In this document: positions 8,381 through 64,000 of the stretch, piece by piece
How positions within the stretch are numbered: the first letter of the stretch is position 1
Layout of the letters: every line of letters starts with the position of its first letter
Origin: Candidatus Kaiserbacteria bacterium RIFCSPLOWO2_01_FULL_45_25
GTDB taxonomy: Bacteria; Patescibacteriota; Minisyncoccia; Phycocordibacterales; UBA918
Length of the DNA stretch: 64,000 nucleotides
NCBI GenBank assembly: GCA_001781415.1
Contig: MFLT01000012.1
Span: 6,485 to 70,484, forward strand
Direction of reading: 5' to 3'
Notes under the pieces: generated by a model
The model's input: only the letters and a program-made list of their open reading frames with translations
What the model was told of the DNA's origin: nothing
The model's database searches: none
Position numbers and translations under genes: made by a program

Positions 8381-8776
8381 TTAAAACGAGTAGAAGTCGC
8401 CTTTGTGCGACCAAAAGATGTGGCCATCGAAACGACCAGTGCCATCAGGTCTTTCTGCGAAAAAGATTTCAGCAGTGGTATCGATGTCACGGTCGTATTC
8501 AAAGACGACAACACTGTTCAAGAAGGTGCTGGCGATATCTCTTGCCGGCACAATTTTGTTTTCTTCAGTGTCCCTGTACGGAGTGATTTTGTGTGTGAGG
8601 AACAATGGATCGGTGAATTTCACAGTGAAAGATGCGCGGACTGTTTGTTTGCCTTCCGTTACCGACCAAAGCACTCGGAAGCACTCATTGGGACTCCGTT
8701 CGCTCGGCTTGATGTCTTCGATGCGAATATGAAACTCGACACCGCTTTCAGTTTTGGCACAGTACTGGTCAATCAT
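8381..8776 (-). CDS. hypothetical protein
   Basis: 131-aa ORF co-oriented with neighbours. Confidence 0.5.
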   Translation of the reverse strand: MIDQYCAKTESGVEFHIRIEDIKPSERSPNECFRVLWSVTEGKQTVRASFTVKFTDPLFLTHKITPYRDTEENKIVPARDIASTFLNSVVVFEYDRDIDTTAEIFFAERPDGTGRFDGHIFWSHKGDFYSF

Positions 8777-16668: not shown

Positions 16669-17097
16669 TCATTGTGTGCAAATGATAAACGGGATTTCCG
16701 GGCTTTCGTCGAAATGGAAGAAAGGAGACGTGTTCATGCCGAACAGTCCCTTTATTTCAGTCAGCATTTTCAAGTACTGACCACGGGCATAAATCAGATC
16801 GCTTTCGCTCACTGACACCGATGATGTCTGAAGCTCAAATTCAATCACATCTTCGACTTCCTTCTTTGTGTCAGTGTTGAGACAAAGAAGCGTATAGAGT
16901 GCCCCCAAGTCGTCTTGGCGCAGAAAGAAAGGCACGCTCCTGGGAGTTTCCGAATAAGCCAAGAGCCATTGCGCCAAGGCCGAGGTGACTCTTGGCAAGT
17001 CGTAGATACCCAGCTCAATGACATTTTGTTGTTTGCTGAAGTTCGTGAAAACATTTTGCAGCAACGTGAGTTTGGACGAGAAAGGTCTGTTGTCCAT
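16669..17097 (-). CDS. hypothetical protein
   Basis: 142-aa ORF. Confidence 0.5.
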   Translation of the reverse strand: MDNRPFSSKLTLLQNVFTNFSKQQNVIELGIYDLPRVTSALAQWLLAYSETPRSVPFFLRQDDLGALYTLLCLNTDTKKEVEDVIEFELQTSSVSVSESDLIYARGQYLKMLTEIKGLFGMNTSPFFHFDESPEIPFIICTQ

Positions 17098-17245: not shown

Positions 17246-17782
17246 TTACTGCCGGGCGGCTTCACGTTGCTTGGTCTGCTGCCAATTATGGACTGTCACC
17301 CCAGTGAGGTGTTCATACCCATGACTTGACCACACCAGACTGATGGGCACATAGCGTACTTGTGGCATCTTCCACCAGTACTGGAGGTTCTTGGCCAGGT
17401 GAGTGCCGTAATCGGCTTGTAGCCGGTTGAAGGTGTGGGTAATCAGTTCCGGCGTGTTAAAGTCCGACTGATTAACACCACCAAGTGACAGTTCTGCCCA
17501 CTTAAGGCCGGCTTTCTCTTCCAGTTCGGCCAAGAAAGATTCATCTTCCTGCAGCAGGGACTGGTAGAGTGTGCGTACTGGCCCGTTCATCATCACAAAA
17601 GGGATGGTCGGGTCTGGGCTCAGTTGCTGTGAGACAGCCAGTTGTACAAAGCTGTCCACCACGTCTACCGCAAAGGTAACCACCATGCCCTTTTGGGCCA
17701 AAAGATTTACAGCCGGAACGACGTCAATCTTGTTGCGAAGCTCCCAAAAGTAAAGTCGAGTACGATCAGATGCCTTGGTCAT
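17246..17782 (-). CDS. hypothetical protein
   Basis: ORF track gives 17246..17884; the first 34 codons look like AT-rich leader, probable start at Met35 (ATG 17782..17780, MTKASDRT...). Confidence 0.45.
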   Translation of the reverse strand: MTKASDRTRLYFWELRNKIDVVPAVNLLAQKGMVVTFAVDVVDSFVQLAVSQQLSPDPTIPFVMMNGPVRTLYQSLLQEDESFLAELEEKAGLKWAELSLGGVNQSDFNTPELITHTFNRLQADYGTHLAKNLQYWWKMPQVRYVPISLVWSSHGYEHLTGVTVHNWQQTKQREAARQ

Positions 17783-17926
17783 GCCTATAACTCCTTGTAA
17801 TGTACTGATACCTGACAATTTCAGGCCAAAATTAGAGTACAGCAGATTAAAAATTAGACAAGCCACCAGGCAAATTTTATGCACACTGCCTCCCGGTATC
17901 AGTTTCTAAAGTGATATTATTAATAT

Positions 17927-19506: not shown

Positions 19507-20016
19507 TTAACGGCAGCGAAGACTTTCATAGGGCTTGGACGTATGTACCTTACGGTAGCTTCGCAAGGTGCCGTACTCGACGTTGGGAACGAGTTTGGCC
19601 TCTTCGTCGACCACCAAGTGACACCGGCCACCACCATCGCGCCAGGTGCAGTCCGTGACCTTGTCCAGACGCGTTTCAGGGACAGTACCCAAAGCATGGT
19701 TTTTTCCGAGGTAGGTGGTGAACCTGGAGCGACTGCGGCAAGTTTGTTGATGGCCGCGTTCACTCCATTGAATCCACCGGCAATCTTCCACGTCGACCTT
19801 GACGGCCATGGTGCTGCGCGAACTGCTCTCGTAGGAGCTGTCCACGACTTTGCACCCGAGACCCCGCCGCAGGTACGCCGCCGGCGGAGGCGCCGGTATT
19901 TCAGCGGGGCGGCTAAATTGCATGGTGTGAACCGGGACTGGCCGCAGGACAACTGTGGAACCACAGCCAGTCAGCGCCAGCAGAATCGAGAAAATGAGAG
20001 CGATATGTGCGTTCAC
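19507..20016 (-). CDS. putative lipoprotein encoded in a GC-rich islet
   Basis: MNAHIALIFSILLALTGC lipobox signal peptide; region ~58-60% GC with overlapping ORFs in 3 frames; frame chosen on signal peptide. Confidence 0.45.
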   Translation of the reverse strand: MNAHIALIFSILLALTGCGSTVVLRPVPVHTMQFSRPAEIPAPPPAAYLRRGLGCKVVDSSYESSSRSTMAVKVDVEDCRWIQWSERGHQQTCRSRSRFTTYLGKNHALGTVPETRLDKVTDCTWRDGGGRCHLVVDEEAKLVPNVEYGTLRSYRKVHTSKPYESLRCR

Positions 20017-20212
20017 GAGAACTCCTTTGGTTGAATTGTGCGCCTCAAATCAAGGTGCTTACTACTCTATACAATAGCACAAAAACAGCTTAAAGTCAAT
20101 CCAAATTCGGGTACAAATGGTGAATTTACCTTTATTTACATAGGTTTTTTCCTTAATGCATAAACCCCGTGAGTTTCACTCACGGGGTTTATGGTTTTTC
20201 TAAAAAAAGTTA

Positions 20213-31716: not shown

Positions 31717-32026
31717 CTCTATATCTCCTATGAACAAAGAACGGCTTAGATTCTATATTGGAGTCTAGAGTAAGTCAAACAGTAATAATGGTGTATAGGG
31801 AATGATCCTTGTGACTAAGTTAGTTAGTTTTGTTTACTACATAACGCAATCCATGCAAACGTAAATAGTACGGTTAACCGTACTATTTTGTTGGGTTGAG
31901 GGGAATGATCCTGACGGTCACCAACCTATATTATTTCGCATCCGCTCATAATCTAGCTGGTGCCGCCGTAAAACAGTGTCTATACACTGTTTTACCACCT
32001 CGCTCGCTCGTAAACTCGCATCGTTC

Positions 32027-32054
32027 CGGCGGTTCGATTCCCACGCAGGGTGCA
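32027..32054 (+). repeat. tRNA 3'-end-like fragment (GGTTCGATTCC T-loop + acceptor-like tail ...GGTGCA)
   Basis: contains GGTTCGATTCCC identical to the T-loop region of the adjacent tRNA-Ala(GGC) but T-stem cannot pair; no 5' half found. Confidence 0.5.
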
Positions 32055-32154
32055 ATTTGGAATCGGTCACTCTCGTGGATATTTTGTTTCGTTCCTCACA
32101 AAATATCTCACTCGCTCGACCCCCACTCGCGGCGGCCCAGAGGGGCCCCGCCGC

Positions 32155-32190
32155 TTCGGTTCGATTCCCCTAGATTCGCACAACAGCAAA
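32155..32190 (+). repeat. inverted partial copy of tRNA-Ala(GGC) 3' end (T-loop to trailer)
   Basis: GGTTCGATTCCCCTAGAtTCgCACAACAGC vs tRNA 3' end GGTTCGATTCCCCTAGAgTCcACAACAGC on opposite strand; arms flank hairpin GACCACTAAGCAaatGCTTAGTGGTC (32192..32217). Confidence 0.7.
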
Positions 32191-32225
32191 CGACCACTAA
32201 GCAAATGCTTAGTGGTCGGCTGTTG

Positions 32226-32298
32226 TGGACTCTAGGGGAATCGAACCCCTTACCTCTTCCATGCCATGGAAGCGCTCTACCAAATGAGCTAAGAGCCC
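32226..32298 (-). tRNA. tRNA-Ala (anticodon GGC)
   Basis: manual fold: acceptor GGGCTCT/AGAGTCC with G3:U70, D-arm GCTC/GAGC, anticodon stem CTTCC/GGAAG loop ATGGCAT, T-arm AGGGG-TTCGATT-CCCCT, discriminator A; CCA not encoded. Confidence 0.85.
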
Positions 32299-32396
32299 GT
32301 GAGTTCGACTATTATACGGATGGAATTAAAAATGAAAAGGGTATAAAAAAGCAGCCCGTGTTTGGGGCCGCTTGTTGTACCTTGTCAGTGTCCTGC

Positions 32397-32657
32397 TTAG
32401 GACTCGGCTGCGTTGGCTCTGTTGAAATCAATTTGCAGCGCAGCCAGTAATTCCGCTTGCTCTGCCGGTGTGCTTCGCTGGTATTGCTCGAGCGCCCTCA
32501 CCAAGAGATTATGCGTCAAGCCATTAAGCAGAAGCTTGTTGGCCTCCTCTGCAGCCAGTTGCCAGCGAGCTTGTTCATCCGCTTGGCTTTGTTGCAGACG
32601 GAGGTTGTATGCCTCTGCTGCCTGCCTGAACTCGTCCAGGAAGTCTTCCACGGTCAT
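32397..32657 (-). CDS. hypothetical small helical protein (GC-rich islet)
   Basis: 86-aa ORF, 4-nt overlap with upstream ORF. Confidence 0.45.
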   Translation of the reverse strand: MTVEDFLDEFRQAAEAYNLRLQQSQADEQARWQLAAEEANKLLLNGLTHNLLVRALEQYQRSTPAEQAELLAALQIDFNRANAAES

Positions 32658-32956
32658 GATTGCACCAGAGGTAACCGAGCCTGCAAGCTGTTGAGCGTCT
32701 GCTCAACATACAGCTTCGTCGACGTGTCGACCACCTCCGCCCGGTTATTGGGCTCGTTACGGAAGTGCTCAAACAGTCGAGCCAGCTCATAGCTGGGCAT
32801 TGTCCAAGGGAGGCTGACCTTAAACGCCGCCGTCCTGGCCAATTCAACAAAGTTGTCCGTCAGGCACTTGTCTTGGCCGTTGATGGCCAGGATGTAGTGT
32901 GTAGCAGCTGCCACAAACATGTTCTTGAACTCTTTTTCAGTGAGAACTGTGGGCAT
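32654..32956 (-). CDS. hypothetical protein (GC-rich islet)
   Basis: 100-aa ORF in 3-gene overlapping operon. Confidence 0.5.
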   Translation of the reverse strand: MPTVLTEKEFKNMFVAAATHYILAINGQDKCLTDNFVELARTAAFKVSLPWTMPSYELARLFEHFRNEPNNRAEVVDTSTKLYVEQTLNSLQARLPLVQS

Positions 32957-33281
32957 GATTGTCTCCTTTGGTTACGGGGTGTGATAGGGTGGGCACAGCG
33001 CAGTCACGCTCGATGACCTGGCTTTTGGTAAGCCAGCCAAACATACCTGGCGACTCCTCTGTCTTTTGGCGAATGACACATCCACCAGAAATCACAAAGT
33101 AGAACTCAATGATCTCTCCGTGCGTCAGCTTGTCGAAGTTAACGACCTTATAACGATGGTCGCCTTGTGGTTTCACCTGCACGATTGTGCCGGTGCTAAG
33201 GGTGTATCCTTCCGTCTTCTCCCCGCAAGCAGTGAAGACAATGGACACAAAGATCAGTACAAGAATGTCGTTAAGGTTCAC
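32937..33281 (-). CDS. putative lipoprotein (GC-rich islet)
   Basis: MNLNDILVLIFVSIVFTACG lipobox; 114 aa. Confidence 0.5.
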   Translation of the reverse strand: MNLNDILVLIFVSIVFTACGEKTEGYTLSTGTIVQVKPQGDHRYKVVNFDKLTHGEIIEFYFVISGGCVIRQKTEESPGMFGWLTKSQVIERDCAVPTLSHPVTKGDNHAHSSH

Positions 33282-33409
33282 TTTTCCTCCAAATGATTGA
33301 TACTAACAAATCCGGCTGAAATTAAATCACTATTGTAGTATGGTGTCAATTAAGACCCTTTCTCCTAATGCTAATTAAAGAGACTGAAATAGGAGTATTC
33401 TCTATGTAT

Positions 33410-33437: not shown

Positions 33438-33588
33438 ATAGGTGCAAAAGCTATAATTTAAACAAATTAATTAATGTTTTGGGTTTTAATGTGGTGTCAA
33501 TTTACAGTAATGATGTGTCACAAACTATTAATAAAACCAGCCCAGCAATTATCAATTGCTGGGCTGGTTTAGGAGTCGCTTCTAACTG

Positions 33589-34455: not shown

Positions 34456-34692
34456 TTAGGCTAAGTTTTGCATTTTTACATCTATAGATTCATCAAAAAC
34501 TTCTATACAGTCAACATTGGCAGTATTCACCATCAATATTCGGCCATCCATTAAAGTCATTTTGGTAAATTCACCTTGTTTTATAGTCTCAGTAATAATT
34601 CCACTAAAAGTTCGCTTGTTTCCGTTTGAAAAATGAATAATCTGTGTAACGGTTTTACCCATGCTGTTTATTGTTGAATGAAGATTTGGCAC
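34456..34692 (-). CDS. hypothetical small protein
   Basis: 78-aa ORF. Confidence 0.4.
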   Translation of the reverse strand: MPNLHSTINSMGKTVTQIIHFSNGNKRTFSGIITETIKQGEFTKMTLMDGRILMVNTANVDCIEVFDESIDVKMQNLA

Positions 34693-34794: not shown

Positions 34795-35289
34795 ATGGTT
34801 TACTTAGAGTGGATTATTAAACAACCAGGAGAATCTGCCATGATTGAATCGTTTCTTTCCTTCCTGCGAGTCTGTTCTGTGGGCACGGCAGTGCTGTCGT
34901 TTTGCCTGCTGATGTATCCGGCTGTACTCCCGTTTTGGGGGCAAGCTTTGGATATAAAGGCTGCTTACGCGCTGATCTTTAGTTTGCTCACGCTTTCTTA
35001 CACAAAGCTCGGAGAAAGGATCATGGTGGCCAGATACATGGTTGTCTACAACCGTTTTATTTCTCAAGCGCTGGTGCTGGTCGTGGTACTCATGCTGCTT
35101 ATGGTGTATACCGCCTGGTATGCATTGAGCACTCTTCAACACCCCAGTTATACCGTGAATGCTGTAGTGCTTCTTGCCTCAGCGGCCATGGCCTTAGCTT
35201 CCACCGTGGCCAGCTGCATTGCTGTGTACTACGCCATCGAGTCTTGGTACCAAGAAAGAATTTATATGAATGGGAGGACATACGAATGA
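34795..35289 (+). CDS. hypothetical membrane protein
   Basis: 164 aa, 4 hydrophobic helices; higher GC than surroundings. Confidence 0.5.
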   Translation: MVYLEWIIKQPGESAMIESFLSFLRVCSVGTAVLSFCLLMYPAVLPFWGQALDIKAAYALIFSLLTLSYTKLGERIMVARYMVVYNRFISQALVLVVVLMLLMVYTAWYALSTLQHPSYTVNAVVLLASAAMALASTVASCIAVYYAIESWYQERIYMNGRTYE

Positions 35290-35302
35290 ATTCAACAACA
35301 AG

Positions 35303-35333
35303 AAACCCGCCACCTGGCGGGTTTTGATATTTA
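35303..35333 (+). terminator. intrinsic terminator (AACCCGCC acct GGCGGGTT + TTGATATTT)
   Basis: hairpin + T-rich tail after stop of 34795..35289. Confidence 0.55.
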
Positions 35334-35640
35334 TATAAGATTCGGTCACCATAAAACTTTCTCCCAGAAAGTTTTATCTAAGTTTTTATTTCGTTTCACT
35401 CATAAAAATCTAAGTACTCTCGAATCTTACTTGAACAAATGAGTACCTAAACCAGAGCTCGCTCGGGTTTAGGGTGCGAATGCAGTTCAAGAATGCCTGC
35501 ATACAGATTCTGTCCACTCATTGGACCTTTTATGCGCAAGCTTGAAAAGTCCTCAATGAGTCTTGCGAAATGGGTCCCTTCCCATTTCTCACCCAACTCG
35601 CCGACAAGCACTCGCTAACGCTCGTCTTGTGTACCGGCTC

Positions 35641-35668
35641 CGTCTTTCGAATCTTCTCTGATCGCACA
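35641..35668 (+). repeat. tRNA-Ala(UGC) 3'-end-like fragment (TTTCGAATCTTCTCTG...GCACA)
   Basis: matches T-loop/acceptor 3' strand of the adjacent tRNA (GTTCGAATCTTCTCTGG) in opposite orientation. Confidence 0.5.
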
Positions 35669-35809
35669 ACGGCAAAGTCCGCAATACTTTCGTGGGTGGT
35701 ATTTAGTCGAAGATTCGGTCACGAGTTACTAAAGCATAATCTTTCGCAAAGCTCAGATTCTGCTAAGTACTCTCGACCCCAGCTCGCTAGTTCGCAAGCT
35801 CACAGCGCT

Positions 35810-35838
35810 CCGCTTTTCGAATCTTCACGAAAGGTGCA
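35810..35838 (+). repeat. second tRNA-Ala(UGC) 3'-end-like fragment (TTTCGAATCTTCACG...GGTGCA)
   Basis: degenerate copy; ends in GGTGCA like fragment at 32027..32054. Confidence 0.45.
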
Positions 35839-35846
35839 TTAGCACC

Positions 35847-35923
35847 TTTCTTCTGGTCCACGAATAAAAAAGGCCGTCACTAGTGTGACGGACGCTTTTT
35901 TATATTCGTGGACCAGAGAAGAT
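35847..35923. repeat. inverted repeat (CTTCTGGTCCACGAATA / TATTCGTGGACCAGAGAAG) enclosing terminator hairpin CCGTCAC tagt GTGACGG; distal arm is the 3' end of tRNA-Ala(UGC)
   Basis: 17-19-nt arms; same architecture as downstream of tRNA-Ala(GGC). Confidence 0.65.
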
Positions 35924-35981
35924 TCGAACTCCCTGCCTCCTCAGTGCAAATGAGGCGCTCTACCAAGTGAGCTACTGGCCC
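35909..35981 (-). tRNA. tRNA-Ala (anticodon UGC)
   Basis: manual fold: acceptor GGGCCAG/CTGGTCC with G3:U70, D-arm GCTC/GAGC, anticodon stem CCTCA/TGAGG loop TTTGCAC, T-loop TTCGAAT (T-stem GGGAG/CTTCT with two G:U), discriminator A. Confidence 0.75.
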
Positions 35982-37717: not shown

Positions 37718-37751
37718 TAAAAAAGACCCTTCGCAAAAAGCGAAGGGTCTA
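37718..37751 (-). terminator. intrinsic terminator (GACCCTTCGC aaaaa GCGAAGGGTC)
   Basis: 10-bp stem, U-run on minus after stop of 37810..38598. Confidence 0.55.
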
Positions 37752-37809
37752 GGTTTTAAGCATTGAAATAGTCTGAGAGGCTATTTCAAAGTTATAAATC
37801 AGTCAAGGA

Positions 37810-38598
37810 TCAGAACTTCCTGGCAGCGGACACCCCGAGACCACCACCACGGCTGCCGTTCCAGAAACCGCTAACGCCCAGACCATCGGCATTAAAGCCT
37901 CCGACGCCGATATAGCCACTGCCCGAGTTGAGGCTGGACGTCCGAACGTAGACGCTTTCAAAGAGTCGGATACTTCGGACCTCGAAATAGGTCGTAATGA
38001 ACCAACTCATCTCGGCGGCGTTCGGCACGTGCTCGAATGCAGAGAGCAGCTTGTTCTGGTCGTCCCAATTTTTGTTGGTTGAGTCAGAGACTAGCGTCTT
38101 CTTGATGGCGAGCCATCCGAATGACGTTTTATCTTCGCGAGCAAACTTTTGGTCGGTATACCATCCGCCCGTCTTTGAGTTGAAGTGGGTGGGTTGGATT
38201 TCCCGAACGTCGAGGAGCGACATCGCCGAGGTTGGTGCGGGCACAGTGGCGTAACTGTTGTCCTTGCACCACATGAGCATGTCTTTCGAAGGCAGACTTT
38301 CGGCAAGCGCCGTGATCTGGTCGTGGGTGTACACGATGCTCGGGCGAGCCTTGGCGACTTCCTCCGGCGTGATGAAATCTGCGCCGAGGATGGATCGGGC
38401 GAGACTGTAGTCTGGCATCTTCGCGGTCAACCGCGCGATACCAGCGGCAAGGTGGTCCTGCCACTCATCCCCGCGACCGAAGAGTCGCTGGAGACCATCC
38501 TTGTCGGGATTCACGGTGGTGAGTGCTTTGCGCGCGCCATCCTGCGTGAATCGGTTGTACTGCCTACGCTGATTAGAGGTGATCGAGTCCATCGTCAT
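37810..38598 (-). CDS. hypothetical protein with Gly-rich C-terminus, encoded in a GC-rich (~60%) islet
   Basis: 262-aa longest frame; ORFs open in 4 frames (compositional effect); no family recognised. Confidence 0.4.
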   Translation of the reverse strand: MTMDSITSNQRRQYNRFTQDGARKALTTVNPDKDGLQRLFGRGDEWQDHLAAGIARLTAKMPDYSLARSILGADFITPEEVAKARPSIVYTHDQITALAESLPSKDMLMWCKDNSYATVPAPTSAMSLLDVREIQPTHFNSKTGGWYTDQKFAREDKTSFGWLAIKKTLVSDSTNKNWDDQNKLLSAFEHVPNAAEMSWFITTYFEVRSIRLFESVYVRTSSLNSGSGYIGVGGFNADGLGVSGFWNGSRGGGLGVSAARKF

Positions 38599-38637
38599 AC
38601 TCCTGTATGTTGCCCAACGCTGGGCGAGCGGCTATCT

Positions 38638-38694
38638 CAGAATGAGACGAACTTTTTGAGGCCTAAAATAAGCCACAAAAAGCTCGTCTCATTC
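38638..38694. repeat. long imperfect hairpin (20-bp arms AGAATGAGACGAaCTTTTTG / CAAAAAGCTCGTCTCATTCT)
   Basis: 19/20 bp complementarity; sits at the right boundary of the GC-rich islet, downstream of uvrC. Confidence 0.5.
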
Positions 38695-38783
38695 TTGATT
38701 GTTAGTGAACTGTATCTTAAAGAACTAATAAGGCAGTATAATTAAGGAATGATATCTGTCAATGATTTTTTCTATCTATAAAA

Positions 38784-58100: not shown

Positions 58101-61100
58101 CTAATACGATGGTACGGCTAAGTAAACAATTTCGGTTTCATATGATCCGGCTGGCTGAAGCTGATTAACCTTTATTCGATACACTATATCATGGGTATCA
58201 GAACTTGGAATTCCACTATACATCACCTCAACTGGAGTGGTTTCCAGTGCCGCATAAGTGTCTGTGGCCGCAAAGCGAGTAGAGCCATTTTTGAGAGTTG
58301 GATCAGTCACATGATAACCGAAGCAGCCAGTTGAAGTTGGAGCACAGGCGTCCGCCCAACTATCAGGAACCAAGTTAGTGGCCGCAATTGGCGGGATAAA
58401 TACCCCAGCCTGACTTTGAAGTTGCTGACGAGCAAACTTAAATAACTGATAGCCCTCAGTAGCATTACTTTCTACTGTGACACGATGAGCACCGATATAC
58501 TCAGTGCCGAGATTAAGAAAGCCAAACCCAATACCAGTTGGAGAAGACGGGACGTCGGTTATTACTCCTGCTGTTGAAGTGCCTGAGGGTAGCCCACTTA
58601 GGGAGAAGTTCAAATACGGCCCTTCAATCACGAGCGACGGAAATGTATTACTGTCGACATGATTTACCGGAGCGTCGTTTGACACATCATATAAGCGGAA
58701 ATAATACACGGCCTGCACTCGTGCTGCCACCTGTCTGATAGTGAAGCTGTGCTCCTTGGTGGTACTGGCATAATGAATGTCGCCAGTGGCGTACTCTCCT
58801 GATGAGTTGTGAACTCCACAACCAAATCCAGCCCCAGCCACACAGCTATCACTACCAGTAAGTACACTAGTGGTGATGGTTTGATTATCTGGAGAAGACC
58901 CTTCGGCGTAGCACCACAGTGATCCCTCCAAGCAGCTAGAAGTGGCCGTCACATCATAGGCGGTGGCGAAAGTTGGATCCTCTGAATATTGAAGTTTGAA
59001 TTTTATATTGTCACCCTGAACGTTTCGTCGCTCAGTCACGGCAATGCGGAGGGCCAATGTATCATTGTTGGCGATATTAGTTGGAGCCACCTCCTCAAGA
59101 GCCAGTGGCGTCACTGGTGTTTCATTGTTTATGTCACTATACCAACGCCAAACGGTAGTGGCTGGGGTGTAACCAGCGGTTCTAATTTGTGGGTAGTTGT
59201 TATATCCATCAAGCGGAGTACCGTCACTTTTTACGGCTCTAAAACAATAAGTTGATTGTGGGATGGCGCCGTTATGCTCCAGGTGCCAATCGTATTCAAT
59301 ATCATTTCCATCAAGAGTTGGGTACGGATTGGCTACTGTAGGATTTTGTTGAGCCAACGAACCAGAAATATCAGCTACCGAAATTAACAAATCTCCAGGA
59401 TTTGGGGGATTGGTAGACAATGATTGTCCATCGGTGGTAGTGGCTGAGGCAAAACCACGCCAGACTGTACCACTACTAATGGCTCCAACATCAAACCACG
59501 AACCACTATCTATAGCCGAACAAGTAGTAGCGCGCACTCCATATTGTAATTTAAAGTTAACAAACCCAGCGGGCATATTGGCGTTACTAGTTCTGACCGT
59601 CATTCTGATTCGTACCCGATCGCCAGTACCAAGTGGTTCGTCTGCAATGGTAATTGAGGTATTCTCTCCTAGACCAGCCAGATTTGGTGGCCAGGCTTCC
59701 GTTGGAGTTAGTTCACCATTATTGACATAAAAACGATAATAATTCTGACGAAGTGACAAATCAGCCACTGGCCATTCAATCAGTTCTACTCGATACGTCA
59801 TGTTGGTACCAGTGTTACTACGCCAAATTGTGTAAGTAGAGGTACTAGTGAGCCCAAAGCCCGCCAATGGTCTTGGGTAGGTAGTGTTGGCTCCAGCTGC
59901 TCTAGTATTGGCCATAATGGAGGTATTATTTACCGAAGCCACTGGCGTTGGTAAGTTTACAGTCAGAGTTAACGGCCCAGTTCCACCGTTAGTGGCACCA
60001 TTGGAGCGCTGCACATTCATTTCACCTAAACCACTCTGAATATTTTCGACTACCCAAGCTACGGAAGTTTGTTCAACTGCCACACTGGCGCCTGTTTCTA
60101 GTTGGAAAGAAATTGCCCCAATACTAGACAGCCATACTTCGTGACCAAAATGCACGACGTTGGTGGTAGCACCCATCCGTTTCTGAACATGCAAAAAAGT
60201 CCGAGCCAAGCTATTCACAGCGGTGATACTTTCGGTTTCAGTGACACCGGCAGCAGCGTAACTATGTTCTGCTCGTTGTATCTGCCAATTAGTACCCACA
60301 AATTCAACTACCGCATAACTAACATTAGCAATACTGGCACCAGAGGCACCACGTCTAAATACAGGCGACTGAGTCACACTGTCCCACTCGGATGTCACTA
60401 GACCAGCGTAAAAGTTTCGAGAAGCATTACGGTTTTCGACGCCAGTCACAAAGACCACCACGTCACTATCGTTAGTTATTCCAGTCACCGGTGTTCCAGT
60501 AGCAACAACAGTAGCTGTCGTATAAGAGACAGTACCAACCGAACGTACCCTTATCTCGTTGTCAGTATCTTGCTTTCCGATAAACTCAACAATCTCCCAC
60601 TCTACTCTGGTGTTTGAGGTGGCAGCTGGAGGCCTGGTAATGGTAAAGCTGGTAAGTAAATTCTCTGGATTTGATATGTAAGCAGTGACATCGTCAGCGT
60701 TTTGTCCGGCAGTGGCTGAGGTGTTACCCGCACCCGTCTGGTGTGAATTTGTGATGCGCACAAAAGCCAGGCTTGAACTGGCCGGAGCTACATAGTCTGT
60801 ACCAGCCACCAAAGTTGCACTGGTGCCTGAGACTTGGGTTATGCCGCGCTGAATTTTGAAGTCACGTTTGGGAGCAGTAGTTATTTCTGCATAGTTAGTG
60901 TACACAGACAACGGTGTACCATTAGCCGACACTCTAAAACAATAAGTTGTCCCGTATGAGGTAAATTCAGTCGAAGTTATACTGTATTCAAGTTCAACAT
61001 AGTCATTGGTAGGAATACTTGTGCTGGCTGATAGGGATTCAGTGTCACGCACGCCACCATTGGGAGTAATAAAGGTACCAGGTGAATTACTGACTCCTCC

Positions 61101-64000
61101 ACTACCTACAGCCAAGTTGGTGGTATCGCTACCATTAGTCAAAAAAGTAGAGTCAAACATATCCCAACCATCAAGTGATGAATCAACGTCTGTCCAAACT
61201 GTAGCGGTATCACAAGTAGTAATACGTGGTGCGTACTCTAGCCTAAATCTATTCTCAGGACCAGTTACACTTCCAGTGTTTGTAACCGCTAAGCGTAGAC
61301 GAATTGGCGACTCAAGACTAAAGTCAGACAGAAGGGTGTTTTCGGTGCCACCAGTGGCTGAAGTAGCTGCTGTTTCGTTCCCATTATCATTTCGCCAATG
61401 GTAGTTTGTTTGAGTAAGAATTGGACCAACCACCGTTGTCTCTCCAGAGATCATCACTTGACCAGATGGTCCAATACTAGCCCCACCACTAGCCGCCACG
61501 TCGGTGGCTGGAGAATTAATAGCTAGACTGATGGTATCACCGTTATTGGCGTCAGCCGAAACGTCATAGACCACATACAAACAAAGTGTGGCAGTGGTTG
61601 AACTTATGACTGAGTCTGTAAAAATCGCGCTGCCGGCAGTATCGGTAAACCCTCCAGTGACGGTACTACCATACTGACTTTCGGTACCAGCATAAGTCTC
61701 CGATGAGCAGTTATAAGGAGCACTGCTATCTAAATCATAATACAACCTAATATTATCCAGCCCAGCCACTTCATCAATTGTGCCAAGTTCAGTGACCGTA
61801 ACTGAAGTTATGTTACGTGATGAGGAGTTTTCAATAATGGCAAAACTACCGCCGGCATAAACATCACTAGCACCAACGGTGGCATTGGTAGTAAGAGTAC
61901 CCAGACTGGATACAGTAACATCCGAATTGATAGTAACAGTTGGGTAATTTGAATACACACTCAGAGGCTGACCCCCGCCAGTGATACGGAAACAATAGGT
62001 CAATCCCTCCTCGGCTGTACTTGAAGCCATAATAGAAAATTCTGCTTCAAAAAAGTCATTCTGATTAAGGGTCAGTGACGGTGTGGTGTTGTTACTGTCA
62101 CGCAGGGCTCCGTTAGTTGTTAGGTAGTTTGTACTTGGCAAATTTGTCAGTCCGCCGTTACCAACAGTTATGTCGGTAGTATCTGAGCCATCAGTAATAT
62201 TGGACGAGTCAGCCATTTGCCACACGGCACTCACATCACCCACTGTCGACCAAGTGACAATATCTGTACAACTTGGTGCCGCCACACCATACTCAAGACT
62301 ATAAGTAGTAGGTACGCTACTAGTTGAACCTTGATTGGCAATACCAAGACGGAGTCTAATTAATTCCTCTTTTTGTAATGACGTTAATGGAGTATTCTCG
62401 GTGCCACCAGTCGCTGAAGTGGCTCCACTTTCAGAACCATCATCATTACGCCAATGATAAGCAAATTGAGTAAGGCTGGAATCCACTACAGTGGTCGTAC
62501 CAGGAAGTAGCACTGCCGATGAAGGAAACACTTCCAGTCCTCCCGAAACGAGAATGTCGTTAACTGGATCAGCTACCAAAATTTCTATAGTGTCTCCGTC
62601 TTGGGCATTGCTATTGATATCAAACACTACATAAAAACACATTGTCTGAGTTGTATTGATTGAAACTGGTGACGCTGTAAACGAAGCCACACCATCAGCA
62701 CCAGAAAATCCACCTGAGACAGTACCGCCAAATTGTGAATCCCCTCCCGCATAACTTTCAGAACTACAATCGTAGGGAGAGGAAGTATCAAGATCATAAA
62801 ACAGACGCACATTACTGACCGAGCCCTGGGCATCTAGAGTTCCATTTTCTGAAATCACAATTGATGAGACGGTCTGAGCCGACTTGGCATCCAAACTAAA
62901 TGAACCGCCAATATACTGATCAGTCACAGAATTTCTTACTTGACTAACTTGAGTGCCAAGACCGGTGAGAATAATCTGCGGGCCAATGTCAGCTACTGTC
63001 TCTCCATACAAGTCCAAAGCTCCTGATGCGTTATACCAGGTTGTATACAGTCTTTCATAACCCATGAGGTTCATATCAACGCCGTACAAATCACCAGCAG
63101 TAGTTGTGAGTGGGCCAGCTTCAGCATCCCAGGTATTCATATTGTCAGTTGAACGTCTATAGTAAACTCGTCCGGTGGAAGCTGTAGCGAGGGTGTCACG
63201 AATGGAATAGGCAGCGTATATATCACCATTGTTAAGATCACGCCCTACAGCTACCTGATGTAGTCCGCGCCCAGCGATGTTGGTAAACACGTTTGCGGTA
63301 GCAGACCATGAACCAGCAGAAAATATAGCGGTGCGGATATCATGATCAGCAGTCACAAACTCATTGTTATCAGCAGCGTAAACCAAATAAATATCACCGC
63401 TAGCAATATCGACAGTTGCAGCCATACCTACGTCATAAGTGGCATTTCCAGCTGAGGCGGCGTCAATAGTATTAAAACCAGACCAAGAAGAACCATTCCA
63501 AGTACTGGAACGGATAACATGTGTGGTACTACGATTGATGAGCAAAACACTTCCACTTGGTAGTGGCATAAGCAAAGACCAACTGTTAGCGTTGCCTTGG
63601 GGGGCTGTACCAGTTGCAGACCAGTTACCACTAACGCCACAACTGGTGGAGCAGCGTCGGATATGAGTACCATTACTGTCGTCTATGTTTATATAAACAG
63701 TGCCGTCAGTTCCTTTAGTGATTGAGACAACGTTTGTGCCCGCTGCGTAGGTAGTGGCGACCCCGGGCATAGTACTGATACTAGTGGACACAAGTAATGT
63801 GTCGGTAGAAGTGTCAAGGTTATTGTAAAAAATCTCATCGTTACCAGTATCAAAAGTAGCAATGTGAATTATGGTACCAGTATCACCAGGAGTCCACTGG
63901 TCGTACCAAACCGATACTGCCACACAGTCAGTCTGACTATCGACCCGCACTCTTGCCCCCCAAGTATTTCCCCCATCTGTAGTCTTGCTATAAACACACA
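58101..64000 (-). CDS. giant secreted repeat protein (>=1965 aa, N-terminus beyond window) with BNR/Asp-box motifs and >=4 tandem ~190-aa modules
   Basis: frame open to window edge (track 'start' at 63950 is GTG, upstream codons ...YSKTTDGGNTWGAR have no stop); Asp-box-like SKTTDGGNTW, STDNMNTW; modules marked by Y[HR]WRNDxG...IRLR...FRLEY...YCFR...PL..YxNYP. Confidence 0.7.
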   Translation of the reverse strand, partial: CVYSKTTDGGNTWGARVRVDSQTDCVAVSVWYDQWTPGDTGTIIHIATFDTGNDEIFYNNLDTSTDTLLVSTSISTMPGVATTYAAGTNVVSITKGTDGTVYINIDDSNGTHIRRCSTSCGVSGNWSATGTAPQGNANSWSLLMPLPSGSVLLINRSTTHVIRSSTWNGSSWSGFNTIDAASAGNATYDVGMAATVDIASGDIYLVYAADNNEFVTADHDIRTAIFSAGSWSATANVFTNIAGRGLHQVAVGRDLNNGDIYAAYSIRDTLATASTGRVYYRRSTDNMNTWDAEAGPLTTTAGDLYGVDMNLMGYERLYTTWYNASGALDLYGETVADIGPQIILTGLGTQVSQVRNSVTDQYIGGSFSLDAKSAQTVSSIVISENGTLDAQGSVSNVRLFYDLDTSSPYDCSSESYAGGDSQFGGTVSGGFSGADGVASFTASPVSINTTQTMCFYVVFDINSNAQDGDTIEILVADPVNDILVSGGLEVFPSSAVLLPGTTTVVDSSLTQFAYHWRNDDGSESGATSATGGTENTPLTSLQKEELIRLRLGIANQGSTSSVPTTYSLEYGVAAPSCTDIVTWSTVGDVSAVWQMADSSNITDGSDTTDITVGNGGLTNLPSTNYLTTNGALRDSNNTTPSLTLNQNDFFEAEFSIMASSTAEEGLTYCFRITGGGQPLSVYSNYPTVTINSDVTVSSLGTLTTNATVGASDVYAGGSFAIIENSSSRNITSVTVTELGTIDEVAGLDNIRLYYDLDSSAPYNCSSETYAGTESQYGSTVTGGFTDTAGSAIFTDSVISSTTATLCLYVVYDVSADANNGDTISLAINSPATDVAASGGASIGPSGQVMISGETTVVGPILTQTNYHWRNDNGNETAATSATGGTENTLLSDFSLESPIRLRLAVTNTGSVTGPENRFRLEYAPRITTCDTATVWTDVDSSLDGWDMFDSTFLTNGSDTTNLAVGSGGVSNSPGTFITPNGGVRDTESLSASTSIPTNDYVELEYSITSTEFTSYGTTYCFRVSANGTPLSVYTNYAEITTAPKRDFKIQRGITQVSGTSATLVAGTDYVAPASSSLAFVRITNSHQTGAGNTSATAGQNADDVTAYISNPENLLTSFTITRPPAATSNTRVEWEIVEFIGKQDTDNEIRVRSVGTVSYTTATVVATGTPVTGITNDSDVVVFVTGVENRNASRNFYAGLVTSEWDSVTQSPVFRRGASGASIANVSYAVVEFVGTNWQIQRAEHSYAAAGVTETESITAVNSLARTFLHVQKRMGATTNVVHFGHEVWLSSIGAISFQLETGASVAVEQTSVAWVVENIQSGLGEMNVQRSNGATNGGTGPLTLTVNLPTPVASVNNTSIMANTRAAGANTTYPRPLAGFGLTSTSTYTIWRSNTGTNMTYRVELIEWPVADLSLRQNYYRFYVNNGELTPTEAWPPNLAGLGENTSITIADEPLGTGDRVRIRMTVRTSNANMPAGFVNFKLQYGVRATTCSAIDSGSWFDVGAISSGTVWRGFASATTTDGQSLSTNPPNPGDLLISVADISGSLAQQNPTVANPYPTLDGNDIEYDWHLEHNGAIPQSTYCFRAVKSDGTPLDGYNNYPQIRTAGYTPATTVWRWYSDINNETPVTPLALEEVAPTNIANNDTLALRIAVTERRNVQGDNIKFKLQYSEDPTFATAYDVTATSSCLEGSLWCYAEGSSPDNQTITTSVLTGSDSCVAGAGFGCGVHNSSGEYATGDIHYASTTKEHSFTIRQVAARVQAVYYFRLYDVSNDAPVNHVDSNTFPSLVIEGPYLNFSLSGLPSGTSTAGVITDVPSSPTGIGFGFLNLGTEYIGAHRVTVESNATEGYQLFKFARQQLQSQAGVFIPPIAATNLVPDSWADACAPTSTGCFGYHVTDPTLKNGSTRFAATDTYAALETTPVEVMYSGIPSSDTHDIVYRIKVNQLQPAGSYETEIVYLAVPSY

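What the first reader, a model, noticed from the sequence alone, without database searches (positions are those of the whole stretch)
32397..33300. GC-rich three-gene islet (lipoprotein + two orphans) inserted beside tRNA-Ala(GGC)
This stretch is ~57% GC against a ~40-45% GC background. ORFs are open on both strands, a compositional signature of the higher GC.

The three genes overlap each other by 4 and 20 nt. The first encodes a lipobox protein (FTACG), followed by 100-aa and 86-aa orphans. The position next to a tRNA, with tRNA-fragment repeats on the other side, suggests a laterally acquired module. A small secreted lipoprotein with two cytoplasmic partners could be a toxin/immunity or surface-exclusion-type cassette.
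Basis: partly seen in the sequence, partly recalled or inferred. Interest (0 to 1): 0.5.

Follow-up and report, generated by a model that had tools for sequence, protein, structure and literature searches.

The report
Fast-evolving orphan operon, not tRNA island
The GC-rich three-gene stretch is a real small operon of unknown function in a groundwater Kaiserbacteria (CPR) genome, but it sits at the same place in related lineages, so it is an old, fast-evolving accessory cassette rather than DNA recently inserted beside the tRNA.

Summary
The three overlapping minus-strand genes, the lipobox, the adjacent tRNA-Ala(GGC) and the tRNA fragments are all there. GC is 52-53%, not 57%, against a window mean of 43.9%. 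The excess lies in codon third positions (GC3 0.60/0.70/0.62, against 0.38 ± 0.06 for Pfam-annotated genes).

The genes are real. They have a conserved promoter, ribosome-binding sites and a terminator, and dN/dS is 0.21 against a sister strain.

They are not a recent insertion. Two other lineages have saturated synonymous sites and flanking proteins 59-92% identical to the window's. Both carry homologous genes in the same slot between the 253-aa gene and tRNA-Ala(GGC), with the same raised GC3.

Gene content is modular, gene by gene:
- window: all three genes
- a ~95% sister strain: no 100-aa gene
- one lineage: no exported-protein gene
- another lineage: the 100-aa and 86-aa proteins fused

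The cassette evolves 2-3.5 times faster than its flanks. No family, phage, plasmid or fold match was found. No integrase or flanking tRNA repeat encloses it, and it lies 5' of the tRNA.

Best reading: a clade-restricted accessory operon encoding an exported disulfide protein plus a cytoplasmic helical pair. Toxin/immunity is unsupported. Ordinary for CPR genomes; modest interest.

The parts
33321..33349 (-). Promoter-like TTGACA (33349..33344), 17-nt spacer, TTTAAT (33326..33321) upstream of the first gene
   Evidence: Read from the sequence. The same TTGACA-N17-T(T/A)TAAT arrangement aligns in L015 and in the distant homologous locus L030. The generic scan did not list it because the -10 hexamer lacks A at position 2.
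32937..33281 (-). Gene 1: 114-aa exported protein. It has an N-terminal hydrophobic segment, a lipobox-like VFTAC19, and a mature domain of about 95 aa with conserved Cys68 and Cys94. The GTG start is preceded by GGAGG (33290..33286).
   Evidence: ORF. dN/dS 0.21 against sister strain L015. A 31%-identical homolog in L030 has the same 20-nt overlap with the next gene; it keeps Cys68/Cys94 but lacks the lipobox Cys. No family or PDB sequence hit.
32654..32956 (-). Gene 2: 100-aa cytoplasmic helical protein ('p100') with the invariant block K30-CLTDNFVELA-R41
   Evidence: ORF. Homologs P0006 (50% identity) and P0007 (42%) were found by exhaustive phmmer. The invariant block carries synonymous differences, so the constraint is on the protein. 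The gene is absent from sister-strain contigs L015/L016.
32397..32657 (-). Gene 3: 86-aa acidic (pI 4.5) helical protein ('p86') with the conserved C-terminal motif LEQYQRSxPxEQxExLxALxxDF. The ATGA start/stop overlaps gene 2.
   Evidence: ORF. Homologs occur in L015, L032 (82 aa) and as the C-terminal half of the L030 fusion protein P0007. pI.
32349..32373 (-). Intrinsic-terminator-like hairpin plus T-run that closes the operon, 24 nt after the stop of gene 3
   Evidence: Terminator scan. It is followed by a separate promoter-like site for the tRNA at 32338..32311.
32954..32961 (-). Upstream copy of the 8-nt direct repeat CAATCATG at the start of gene 2
   Evidence: Together with the copy at 32655-32662 it brackets the 299-nt segment that is missing in L015/L016.
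32655..32662 (-). Downstream copy of the 8-nt direct repeat CAATCATG at the start of gene 3
32225..32298 (-). tRNA-Ala(GGC), the downstream neighbour. It is conserved next to the cassette in all lineages examined but is not part of the operon.
   Evidence: ARAGORN and Rfam. The same tRNA follows the homologous cassettes in L030 and L032.
33534..33570 (-). Perfect 17-bp hairpin that terminates the upstream 253-aa gene and marks the upstream boundary of the operon
   Evidence: Inverted repeat I4. It is conserved as a hairpin in L015, L030 and L032.

Best explanation
The stretch is a self-contained three-gene operon with its own promoter and terminator, in a groundwater Candidatus Kaiserbacteria (CPR) genome.

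It encodes:
- a small exported protein, possibly lipid-anchored in this lineage, whose roughly 95-residue extracytoplasmic domain carries a conserved cysteine pair;
- two small acidic all-helical cytoplasmic proteins, p100 and p86, that act together. They are one polypeptide in a related lineage.

The cassette is not a recent tRNA-targeted insertion. It has been inherited at a fixed position, between the 253-aa exported-protein gene and tRNA-Ala(GGC), since before the split of at least three lineages whose synonymous sites are saturated.

It evolves 2-3.5 times faster at non-synonymous sites than its flanks. It gains or loses whole genes cleanly at the ribosome-binding-site/start-codon junctions.

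Its raised third-position GC is a property of the cassette in every lineage, and of other orphan genes in this genome. That composition is either still unameliorated or actively maintained.

Functional inference, not shown: this is a cell-envelope or interaction module of an episymbiont under diversifying pressure, with the p100-p86 pair as a cytoplasmic partner (adaptor, chaperone or regulator) of the exported component.
For: Genes are real:
- Normal GC1/GC2 with high GC3 in the annotated frames.
- GGAGG and AAAGGAGA ribosome-binding sites.
- dN/dS 0.21 for gene 1 against L015.
- An invariant 12-residue block in p100 that carries synonymous changes.

Operon boundaries: conserved promoter and terminator.

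Fixed locus:
- L030/L031 carry tRNA-Ala(TGC), p78, p253, a 118-aa gene-1 homolog, the p100::p86 fusion and tRNA-Ala(GGC), in that order.
- L032-L034 carry p253, a p100 homolog, a p86 homolog, tRNA-Ala(GGC) and then the PRTase gene.
- Flanking proteins are 59-92% identical, and pS is 0.57-0.98 in all genes compared.

Vertical pattern:
- The three lineages are roughly equidistant for flanks (p253 dN 0.18-0.22) and for the cassette (p100 0.38-0.58, p86 0.59-0.71).

Modularity:
- L015/L016 lack p100.
- L032 lacks gene 1.
- P0007 is a fusion recorded on two independent contigs.

Composition shared by the homologous cassettes: GC3 0.55-0.59 against 0.29-0.36 for flanks.

No mobile-element signature:
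- No integrase domain among the neighbouring ORFs scanned.
- No PHROG, IMG/VR, phage or plasmid match.

Exported versus cytoplasmic: hydrophobic N-terminus and conserved Cys68/Cys94 in gene 1; no hydrophobic segment in p100 or p86.
Against: - The structure model rests on four sequences (pLDDT 75, pTM 0.46).
- Only three diverged lineages plus one sister strain were recovered, and two of the contigs are short.
- More distant relatives (L018-L020, L029) lack the cassette within the flanks recovered, so an ancient lateral acquisition is not excluded.
- High GC3 persisting despite saturated synonymous sites is not explained by simple vertical descent.
- A 94-nt stretch identical between the window and the ~95% sister strain hints at recombination inside the cassette.
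Confidence: 0.55

Rival explanations
1. Replacement-type hypervariable locus. The cassette alleles are repeatedly imported from an outside, GC-richer gene pool by homologous recombination in the conserved flanks (p253 and the tRNA). This would keep the composition foreign and the divergence high.
For: - GC3 stays at 0.55-0.70 in all lineages although synonymous sites are saturated.
- The cassette is far more divergent than its flanks.
- Gene content differs by lineage.
- Strain mosaics and contig breaks occur at the adjacent tRNA region.
- A 94-nt identical block lies inside otherwise ~95%-identical DNA.
- The concept is described for replacement flexible genomic islands (PMC4033161).
Against: - Pairwise distances of cassette and flanks scale together across the three lineages, as expected for vertical descent with a faster rate.
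- No donor sequence was found in 5.8 billion clusters, 1.84 billion representatives, IMG/VR, phages or plasmids.
Confidence: 0.2
2. A recently acquired genomic islet was integrated at tRNA-Ala(GGC), and encodes a toxin/immunity or surface-exclusion cassette.
For: - Atypical GC3.
- Orphan proteins.
- tRNA adjacency with tRNA-fragment repeats.
- The tRNA is a live integration site in strain L006, which has a 22-nt direct repeat there.
- Small 4-nt-overlapping genes resemble toxin-antitoxin architecture.
- No lineage recovered has p100 without p86.
Against: - The cassette lies 5' of the tRNA, outside the repeat-bounded zone.
- No integrase was found.
- The same slot is occupied in lineages with saturated dS.
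- No toxin, antitoxin, immunity or defence family hit. The best is BSAP-5i at 14.9 bits against a cut-off of 150.
- p100 and p86 are fused in L030. Neither is basic, and neither resembles a DNA-binding protein by fold search.
Confidence: 0.07
3. The raised GC3 reflects codon selection in very highly expressed native genes, not foreign origin or biased repair.
For: - The GC3 excess is conserved in the homologous cassettes.
- A strong consensus -35 box and good ribosome-binding sites.
Against: - Both G3 (0.32 against 0.17) and C3 (0.32 against 0.21) are raised, which is not the usual pattern of translational selection.
- The other high-GC3 genes in the window are also orphans. One of them, p262, is a clean insertion relative to a 92-98%-identical relative.
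- No ribosomal-protein genes were available in the window for calibration.
Confidence: 0.1
4. The stretch is not protein-coding. It would be a GC-rich structured RNA or chance ORFs in GC-rich DNA.
For: - ORF lengths of 86-114 codons are no longer than the longest open runs in shuffled sequence of this composition.
- No protein family hits.
Against: - Codon-position GC pattern.
- dN/dS 0.21.
- Reading frames and the 20-nt overlap are preserved at 31-50% amino-acid identity with saturated synonymous sites.
- No Rfam match even at E up to 5.
Confidence: 0.03

Closest known systems
Replacement flexible genomic islands (Lopez-Perez, Martin-Cuadrado and Rodriguez-Valera 2014, PMC4033161)
   Same: - A fixed chromosomal position in all lineages examined.
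- Contents much more divergent than the flanks, and differing in gene complement.
- Includes an exposed or exported product.
- Atypical composition.
- Signs of recombination nearby.
   Different: - Tiny (0.9 kb, 2-3 genes), compared with multi-gene envelope-biosynthesis clusters.
- Distances scale with the flanks, so replacement is not demonstrated.
- Function unknown.
tRNA-targeted integrative islands, for example the integrase-carrying islands and tycheposons flanked by partial tRNAs (10.1101/2020.12.28.424599)
   Same: - Sits next to a tRNA gene whose 3' side carries partial-tRNA repeats and strain-specific insertions.
- Atypical GC.
   Different: - The cassette is on the 5' side of tRNA-Ala(GGC).
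- It is not bracketed by tRNA-end repeats.
- It has no integrase.
- It is present at the same site in diverged relatives.
Type II toxin-antitoxin operons
   Same: - Two small co-transcribed genes with an ATGA overlap.
- The downstream partner (p86) is retained whenever p100 is present, and also when p100 is lost.
   Different: - No toxin or antitoxin family or fold was found.
- p86 is an acidic helical protein with no recognisable DNA-binding domain.
- The pair is naturally fused in one lineage.
- A third, exported, gene heads the operon.
WXG100/Esx-type pairs of roughly 100-aa helical proteins
   Same: - Paired, small, acidic, all-helical, co-transcribed proteins that probably form a complex.
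- An invariant Trp in a loop of p100.
   Different: - No W-x-G motif.
- No match to any Pfam family, WXG100 included, at E up to 1.
- The model shows four helices per protein rather than a helical hairpin.
- No secretion ATPase was seen nearby.

Membership tests
tRNA-integrated genomic island | Site-specific recombinase (integrase) gene within or at the edge of the island | tested here: not met
   Pfam scans of the ORFs of at least 120 aa and selected shorter ones between 27856 and 38598 show TrmB and PRTase domains and otherwise nothing. No integrase or recombinase domain appears. The smallest ORFs were not scanned.
tRNA-integrated genomic island | Island lies between the tRNA 3' end and a direct repeat of that end | tested here: not met
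   The cassette is upstream (5') of tRNA-Ala(GGC). The only other copy of that tRNA's end in the window is an inverted copy at 32158-32179, on the far side. No second copy of the tRNA-Ala(TGC) end exists in the window at 3 mismatches or fewer.
tRNA-integrated genomic island | Atypical base composition or codon usage | tested here: met
   GC 52.8% against 43.9%. GC3 is 0.60-0.70 against 0.38 ± 0.06 for Pfam-annotated genes.
tRNA-integrated genomic island | Absent from the same site in related genomes | tested here: not met
   Homologous genes occupy the same slot in L015/L016, L030/L031 and L032-L034. The cassette is absent only within the flanks recovered from more distant relatives, where the whole segment differs.
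Type II toxin-antitoxin module | Recognisable toxin and antitoxin families or folds, with a DNA-binding antitoxin | tested here: not met
   No Pfam, NCBIfam or PADLOC hit. Fold searches gave only generic helical matches. The model is of moderate confidence, so a very remote relationship is not excluded.
Type II toxin-antitoxin module | Two separate polypeptides, so that a labile antitoxin can free the toxin | tested here: not met
   p100 and p86 form a single 191-aa protein (P0007) on two independent contigs. An in-frame deletion fusion, P0003, also exists.
Bacterial lipoprotein (Lgt/Lsp substrate) | Lipobox [LVI][ASTVI][GAS]C after a hydrophobic h-region near the N-terminus | tested here: met
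   The N-terminus reads ILVLIFVSIVFTA-C19. The -3 residue is Phe, which fits the broader PROSITE-type pattern (recalled from memory) rather than the strict one.
Bacterial lipoprotein (Lgt/Lsp substrate) | Positively charged n-region, and conservation of the +1 Cys in homologs | tested here: not met
   The n-region is MNLND, with no Lys or Arg. The L030 homolog has AYAHSG at this position, with no Cys, which looks like a signal-peptidase-I-type site. L015 keeps the Cys.
Bacterial lipoprotein (Lgt/Lsp substrate) | lgt and lsp genes present in the genome | not testable with these tools
   Only the 64-kb window and 20-kb loci of this genome are held.
Replacement flexible genomic island | Same locus in all strains, with different or highly divergent gene content | tested here: met
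   Four content states occur at one locus. Cassette proteins are 31-50% identical while flanks are 59-92% identical.
Replacement flexible genomic island | Evidence of allele exchange, such as boundary substitution peaks or incongruent trees | tested here: inconclusive
   Distances scale with the flanks. Against that, a 94-nt identical block and a 99.95%/94% identity switch at 31845-31998 in L009 show that recombination, or chimeric assembly, occurs nearby.
WXG100 (Esx) proteins | W-x-G turn motif in a helical hairpin of about 100 aa; match to the Pfam WXG100 family | tested here: not met
   No match to any Pfam family, WXG100 included, at E up to 1. The loop reads LPWTM / LPWHM / LRWPL. The model gives four helices per protein.

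The most novel reading that the evidence does not exclude
p100-p86 and the exported partner define an undescribed, clade-restricted interface cassette of an episymbiotic CPR bacterium, facing either the host or phages. Its genes would be swapped in and out as whole-ORF modules. Its GC3-rich composition would be actively maintained, by biased gene conversion at a recombination hot spot or by recurrent import of alleles, rather than being a fading relic of one transfer.
Probability: 0.15. Interest if true: 0.5.

Novelty: new member of a known kind. Interest (0 to 1): 0.25.

Why it matters
- Compositional islets beside tRNAs are routinely read as fresh horizontal transfers. Here comparison with diverged relatives shows a GC3-rich orphan cassette that has held its position and its odd composition through saturating synonymous divergence.
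- This is a caution for island-calling in CPR genomes.
- It also poses a small puzzle: what keeps third positions GC-rich in a 44% GC genome?
- The p100-p86 pair is an unannotated protein family with a natural fusion, which gives a concrete interaction to test.
- Beyond that, the locus is one of very many lineage-specific hypothetical operons in CPR bacteria.

Tried and rejected
- **Family libraries.** Pfam, PHROGs, PADLOC and NCBIfam gave nothing above noise for the three proteins and their neighbours. The BSAP-5i immunity hit (14.9 bits against a cut-off of 150) and the Cupin_2 hit (E = 0.1) were rejected as matches to the signal-peptide/lipobox region or as chance.
- **PDB sequence searches.** Single sequences and three family profiles gave nothing below E = 0.05.
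- **Word-indexed homolog searches** found only near-identical strains.
- **Exhaustive phmmer with p100.** Two hits (P0008, P0009) were rejected as artefacts of long repetitive proteins.
- **Structure prediction.** AlphaFold on p100 alone was too poor to use (pLDDT 51). The p100+p86 model (pLDDT 75) gave no fold match. The afdb50 library was unavailable.
- **Mobile-element collections.** IMG/VR scans with three family alignments, phage tblastn and plasmid blastn all gave no match.
- **Rfam** at permissive thresholds gave only the two tRNAs plus hairpin-driven noise.
- **Genome scan with Ddl.** The relatives it returned lose synteny right after tRNA-Ala(TGC), so they gave no clean empty site.
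- **Metagenome scan with p253.** It gave only one informative contig, L029, at 68% identity.
- **Literature.** A search for Kaiserbacteria islands found nothing.
Full report
**What is in the sequence**

On the minus strand there are three ORFs: 33281..32937 (114 aa, GTG start), 32956..32654 (100 aa, 'p100') and 32657..32397 (86 aa, 'p86'). They overlap by 20 and 4 nt.

tRNA-Ala(GGC) lies just downstream at 32298..32225. A second tRNA-Ala (TGC) lies at 35981..35908.

GC is 52.3% for 32397-33300 and 52.8% for the genes, not about 57%. The window mean is 43.9%. The stretch is in the top 1.25% of 885-nt windows, and 37811-38695 is richer still at 56.2%.

The excess sits in third codon positions:
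- GC3 is 0.596, 0.700 and 0.616, with ordinary GC1 and GC2.
- The 30 Pfam-annotated genes of the window average 0.382 ± 0.057, so the three genes are 3.7-5.5 SD above them.
- Both G3 and C3 are raised.

**Are these genes?**

ORF length alone does not show it. Other evidence does:
- The codon-position GC pattern fits the annotated frames.
- GGAGG and AAAGGAGA sit before the first two start codons.
- A TTGACA-N17-TTTAAT promoter at 33349..33321 is conserved in a distant relative.
- A terminator lies at 32373..32349, followed by a separate promoter-like site for the tRNA.
- dN/dS is 0.21 for gene 1 against a sister strain of about 95% nucleotide identity.
- The reading frames, and even the 20-nt overlap, are preserved in homologs of 31-50% identity.
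- A 12-residue invariant block in p100 (KCLTDNFVELAR) carries synonymous differences.
- Rfam finds nothing in the stretch.

**Source and distribution**

Exact copies of the proteins occur on many contigs from Rifle aquifer samples. These include two Candidatus Kaiserbacteria genome bins and a 965-kb scaffold, all with the same gene order.

The word-indexed homolog searches found only near-identical strains. An exhaustive phmmer search with p100 found two real distant homologs, P0006 (50% identity) and P0007 (42%). No homolog of any of the three proteins was found outside these lineages.

**The decisive comparison**

The contigs that encode P0006 and P0007 carry the same neighbourhood as the window.
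- L030/L031: tRNA-Ala(TGC), p78, p253, a 118-aa homolog of gene 1, a 191-aa protein that is p100 fused to p86, then tRNA-Ala(GGC).
- L032-L034: p78, p253, a p100 homolog, a p86 homolog, tRNA-Ala(GGC), then the PRTase gene. There is no gene 1.

Divergence between these lineages and the window:

| Gene | Amino-acid identity to the window |
|---|---|
| p78 (flank) | about 90% |
| p253 (flank) | 71-74% |
| PRTase (flank) | 70% |
| p151 (flank) | 59-66% |
| cassette proteins | 31-50% |

Synonymous sites are saturated, with pS 0.57-0.98.

Pairwise non-synonymous distances scale together in the three lineages:
- p253: 0.18-0.22
- p100: 0.38-0.58
- p86: 0.59-0.71

This is what vertical descent with a 2-3.5-fold faster rate predicts.

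The homologous cassettes are also GC-rich, at about 50% GC and GC3 0.55-0.59, against 0.29-0.36 in their flanks.

So the cassette, its position next to this tRNA and its odd composition all predate the split of these lineages. It is not a recent insertion in the window's genome.

**Modular gene content**

Contigs L015/L016 come from a sister strain of about 95% identity. They have gene 1 followed directly by the p86 homolog, with an ATGA overlap.
- The 299-nt p100 segment is missing.
- In the window that segment is bracketed by the 8-nt repeat CAATCATG at the two start codons.

L032 lacks gene 1 cleanly; part of the same leader sequence runs into p100 there.

L030 fuses p100 and p86. The fusion is recorded on two independent contigs.

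An in-frame deletion fusion, P0003, also exists in read-level data.

p86 is present in every state, and p100 is never seen without it.

**More distant relatives**

UvrA-UvrC-Ddl-p206-tRNA-Ala(TGC) is conserved in relatives L018-L020. L017, whose contig ends within Ddl, carries the first three. Synteny ends after that tRNA in L018-L020, and the cassette is not within the downstream flanks recovered, 5-10 kb.

A p253 homolog of 68% identity (L029) is followed by a zinc-ribbon gene instead of the cassette.

The cassette therefore seems confined to a subclade. An old acquisition by that subclade's ancestor cannot be excluded.

**Why it is not a tRNA island**

- The cassette is 5' of tRNA-Ala(GGC).
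- The repeat scars, a strain-specific insertion bounded by a perfect 22-nt repeat of the tRNA end (L006), a 99.95%/94% identity switch (L009) and several contig ends all lie on the 3' side.
- No integrase domain was found among the neighbouring ORFs scanned.
- No repeat of either tRNA end brackets the cassette.
- No phage, IMG/VR or plasmid match exists.

**The proteins**

Gene 1 product:
- It has a hydrophobic N-terminus and VFTAC19.
- Its n-region has no positive charge.
- The L030 homolog has AYAHSG in place of the lipobox.
- Cys68 and Cys94 are invariant.
- Export is therefore well supported, a disulfide-stabilised domain is likely, and lipidation is uncertain and lineage-specific.

p100 and p86:
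- Both are acidic, with no hydrophobic segment.
- A model of the pair, built on a four-sequence alignment, gives eight helices at pLDDT 75 and pTM 0.46.
- The natural fusion implies that the two proteins work as one unit. This is an inference from the fusion principle, not a demonstration.

**Mechanism, with what is shown and what is inferred**

Shown:
- an autonomous operon;
- a fixed locus;
- fast protein evolution under purifying selection;
- whole-gene gain or loss;
- persistent high GC3.

Inferred:
- an exported protein on the cell surface, plus a cytoplasmic p100-p86 complex that serves it as adaptor, chaperone or regulator, under diversifying pressure typical of surface or interaction genes in an episymbiont;
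- gene loss by deletion between short repeats at the ribosome-binding-site/start-codon junctions.

Unexplained:
- Third positions remain GC-rich after saturating divergence.
- Candidate causes are slow amelioration of an ancient import, recurrent allele import (as proposed for replacement islands; PMC4033161), biased gene conversion at a recombination hot spot, or codon selection.
- The window offers no ribosomal genes to calibrate the last of these.

**Verdict**

- An atypical, accessory, variable locus: yes.
- Insertion beside the tRNA: no.
- Toxin/immunity: no evidence, and the fusion argues against it.

This is a new, unannotated small protein family in a familiar kind of locus, and interest is modest.

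Noticed in passing
window 37730-38783 (gene 37810-38598, minus strand): A 262-aa orphan gene with the highest GC in the window (57% GC, GC3 0.71) and a glycine-rich C-terminus sits between UvrC and Ddl. A relative with 92-98% identical UvrA, UvrC and Ddl (L017) has UvrC and Ddl adjacent, as do L018-L020.
   Followed up: partly
window 31790-32224 and 35250-35907; L030 2686-3080; L032 3844-4030; L018 11842-12200: Both tRNA-Ala genes are followed by a terminator hairpin, an inverted copy of the tRNA's own 3' end, and conserved hairpin modules (GGGGTCGAG...CTCGTGACC). In relatives, perfect 17-nt direct repeats of the tRNA 3' end follow at 150-365 nt. The tRNA 3' half plus its inverted copy folds into a hairpin of about 45 bp (MFE z = -9.5). 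This looks like serial accretion of small elements of 150-215 nt, or attachment-site scars. No integrase is in sight.
   Followed up: partly
L006 (MFLO01000078) 2167-2305, corresponding to window 32225: One strain has extra DNA immediately after tRNA-Ala(GGC). It is bounded by a perfect 22-nt repeat, GGTTCGATTCCCCTAGAGTCCA, and interrupted by a scaffold gap, so an integrated element of unknown size may sit there.
   Followed up: no
window 31845-31998; contig ends at 32049, 32143 and 32167: Contig L009 is 99.95% identical to the window from 36052 to 31998 and only 94% identical from 31845 to 30007. Three other contigs end inside the tRNA-fragment zone. This is either a strain-level recombination breakpoint or an assembly chimera hot spot.
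   Followed up: partly
window 19507-20034: Another GC-rich patch (58.6% GC) has long ORFs open on both strands: 169 aa on the minus strand and 163 aa on the plus strand. Neither has a Pfam hit. Which strand codes, if either, was not resolved.
   Followed up: no
window genes without a Pfam hit (for example 16669-17097, 17246-17884, 8381-8776, 34795-35289): Genes without a Pfam match have higher GC3 than annotated genes (mean 0.457 against 0.382; Mann-Whitney p = 0.026). The p164 homolog in L032 keeps its high GC3 (0.56). High GC3 seems to mark a class of orphan genes in this genome.
   Followed up: partly
window 34456-34692 (minus strand): A 78-aa protein with no family hit is about 90% identical across lineages whose neighbouring genes are about 70% identical (dN 0.04-0.06). 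It is a strongly constrained small protein of unknown function.
   Followed up: no
P0005 (SRR3989344 read-level contig), corresponding to window 32397-32070: An 86%-identical p86 variant reads through into sequence matching the inverted tRNA fragment about 13 codons after the motif IDFNR. That leaves no room for the terminator and tRNA-Ala(GGC), so this strain may lack the tRNA or carry a rearrangement there.
   Followed up: no
window 58101-63950 (minus strand): A 1949-aa ORF has no Pfam domain at E <= 0.001.
   Followed up: no
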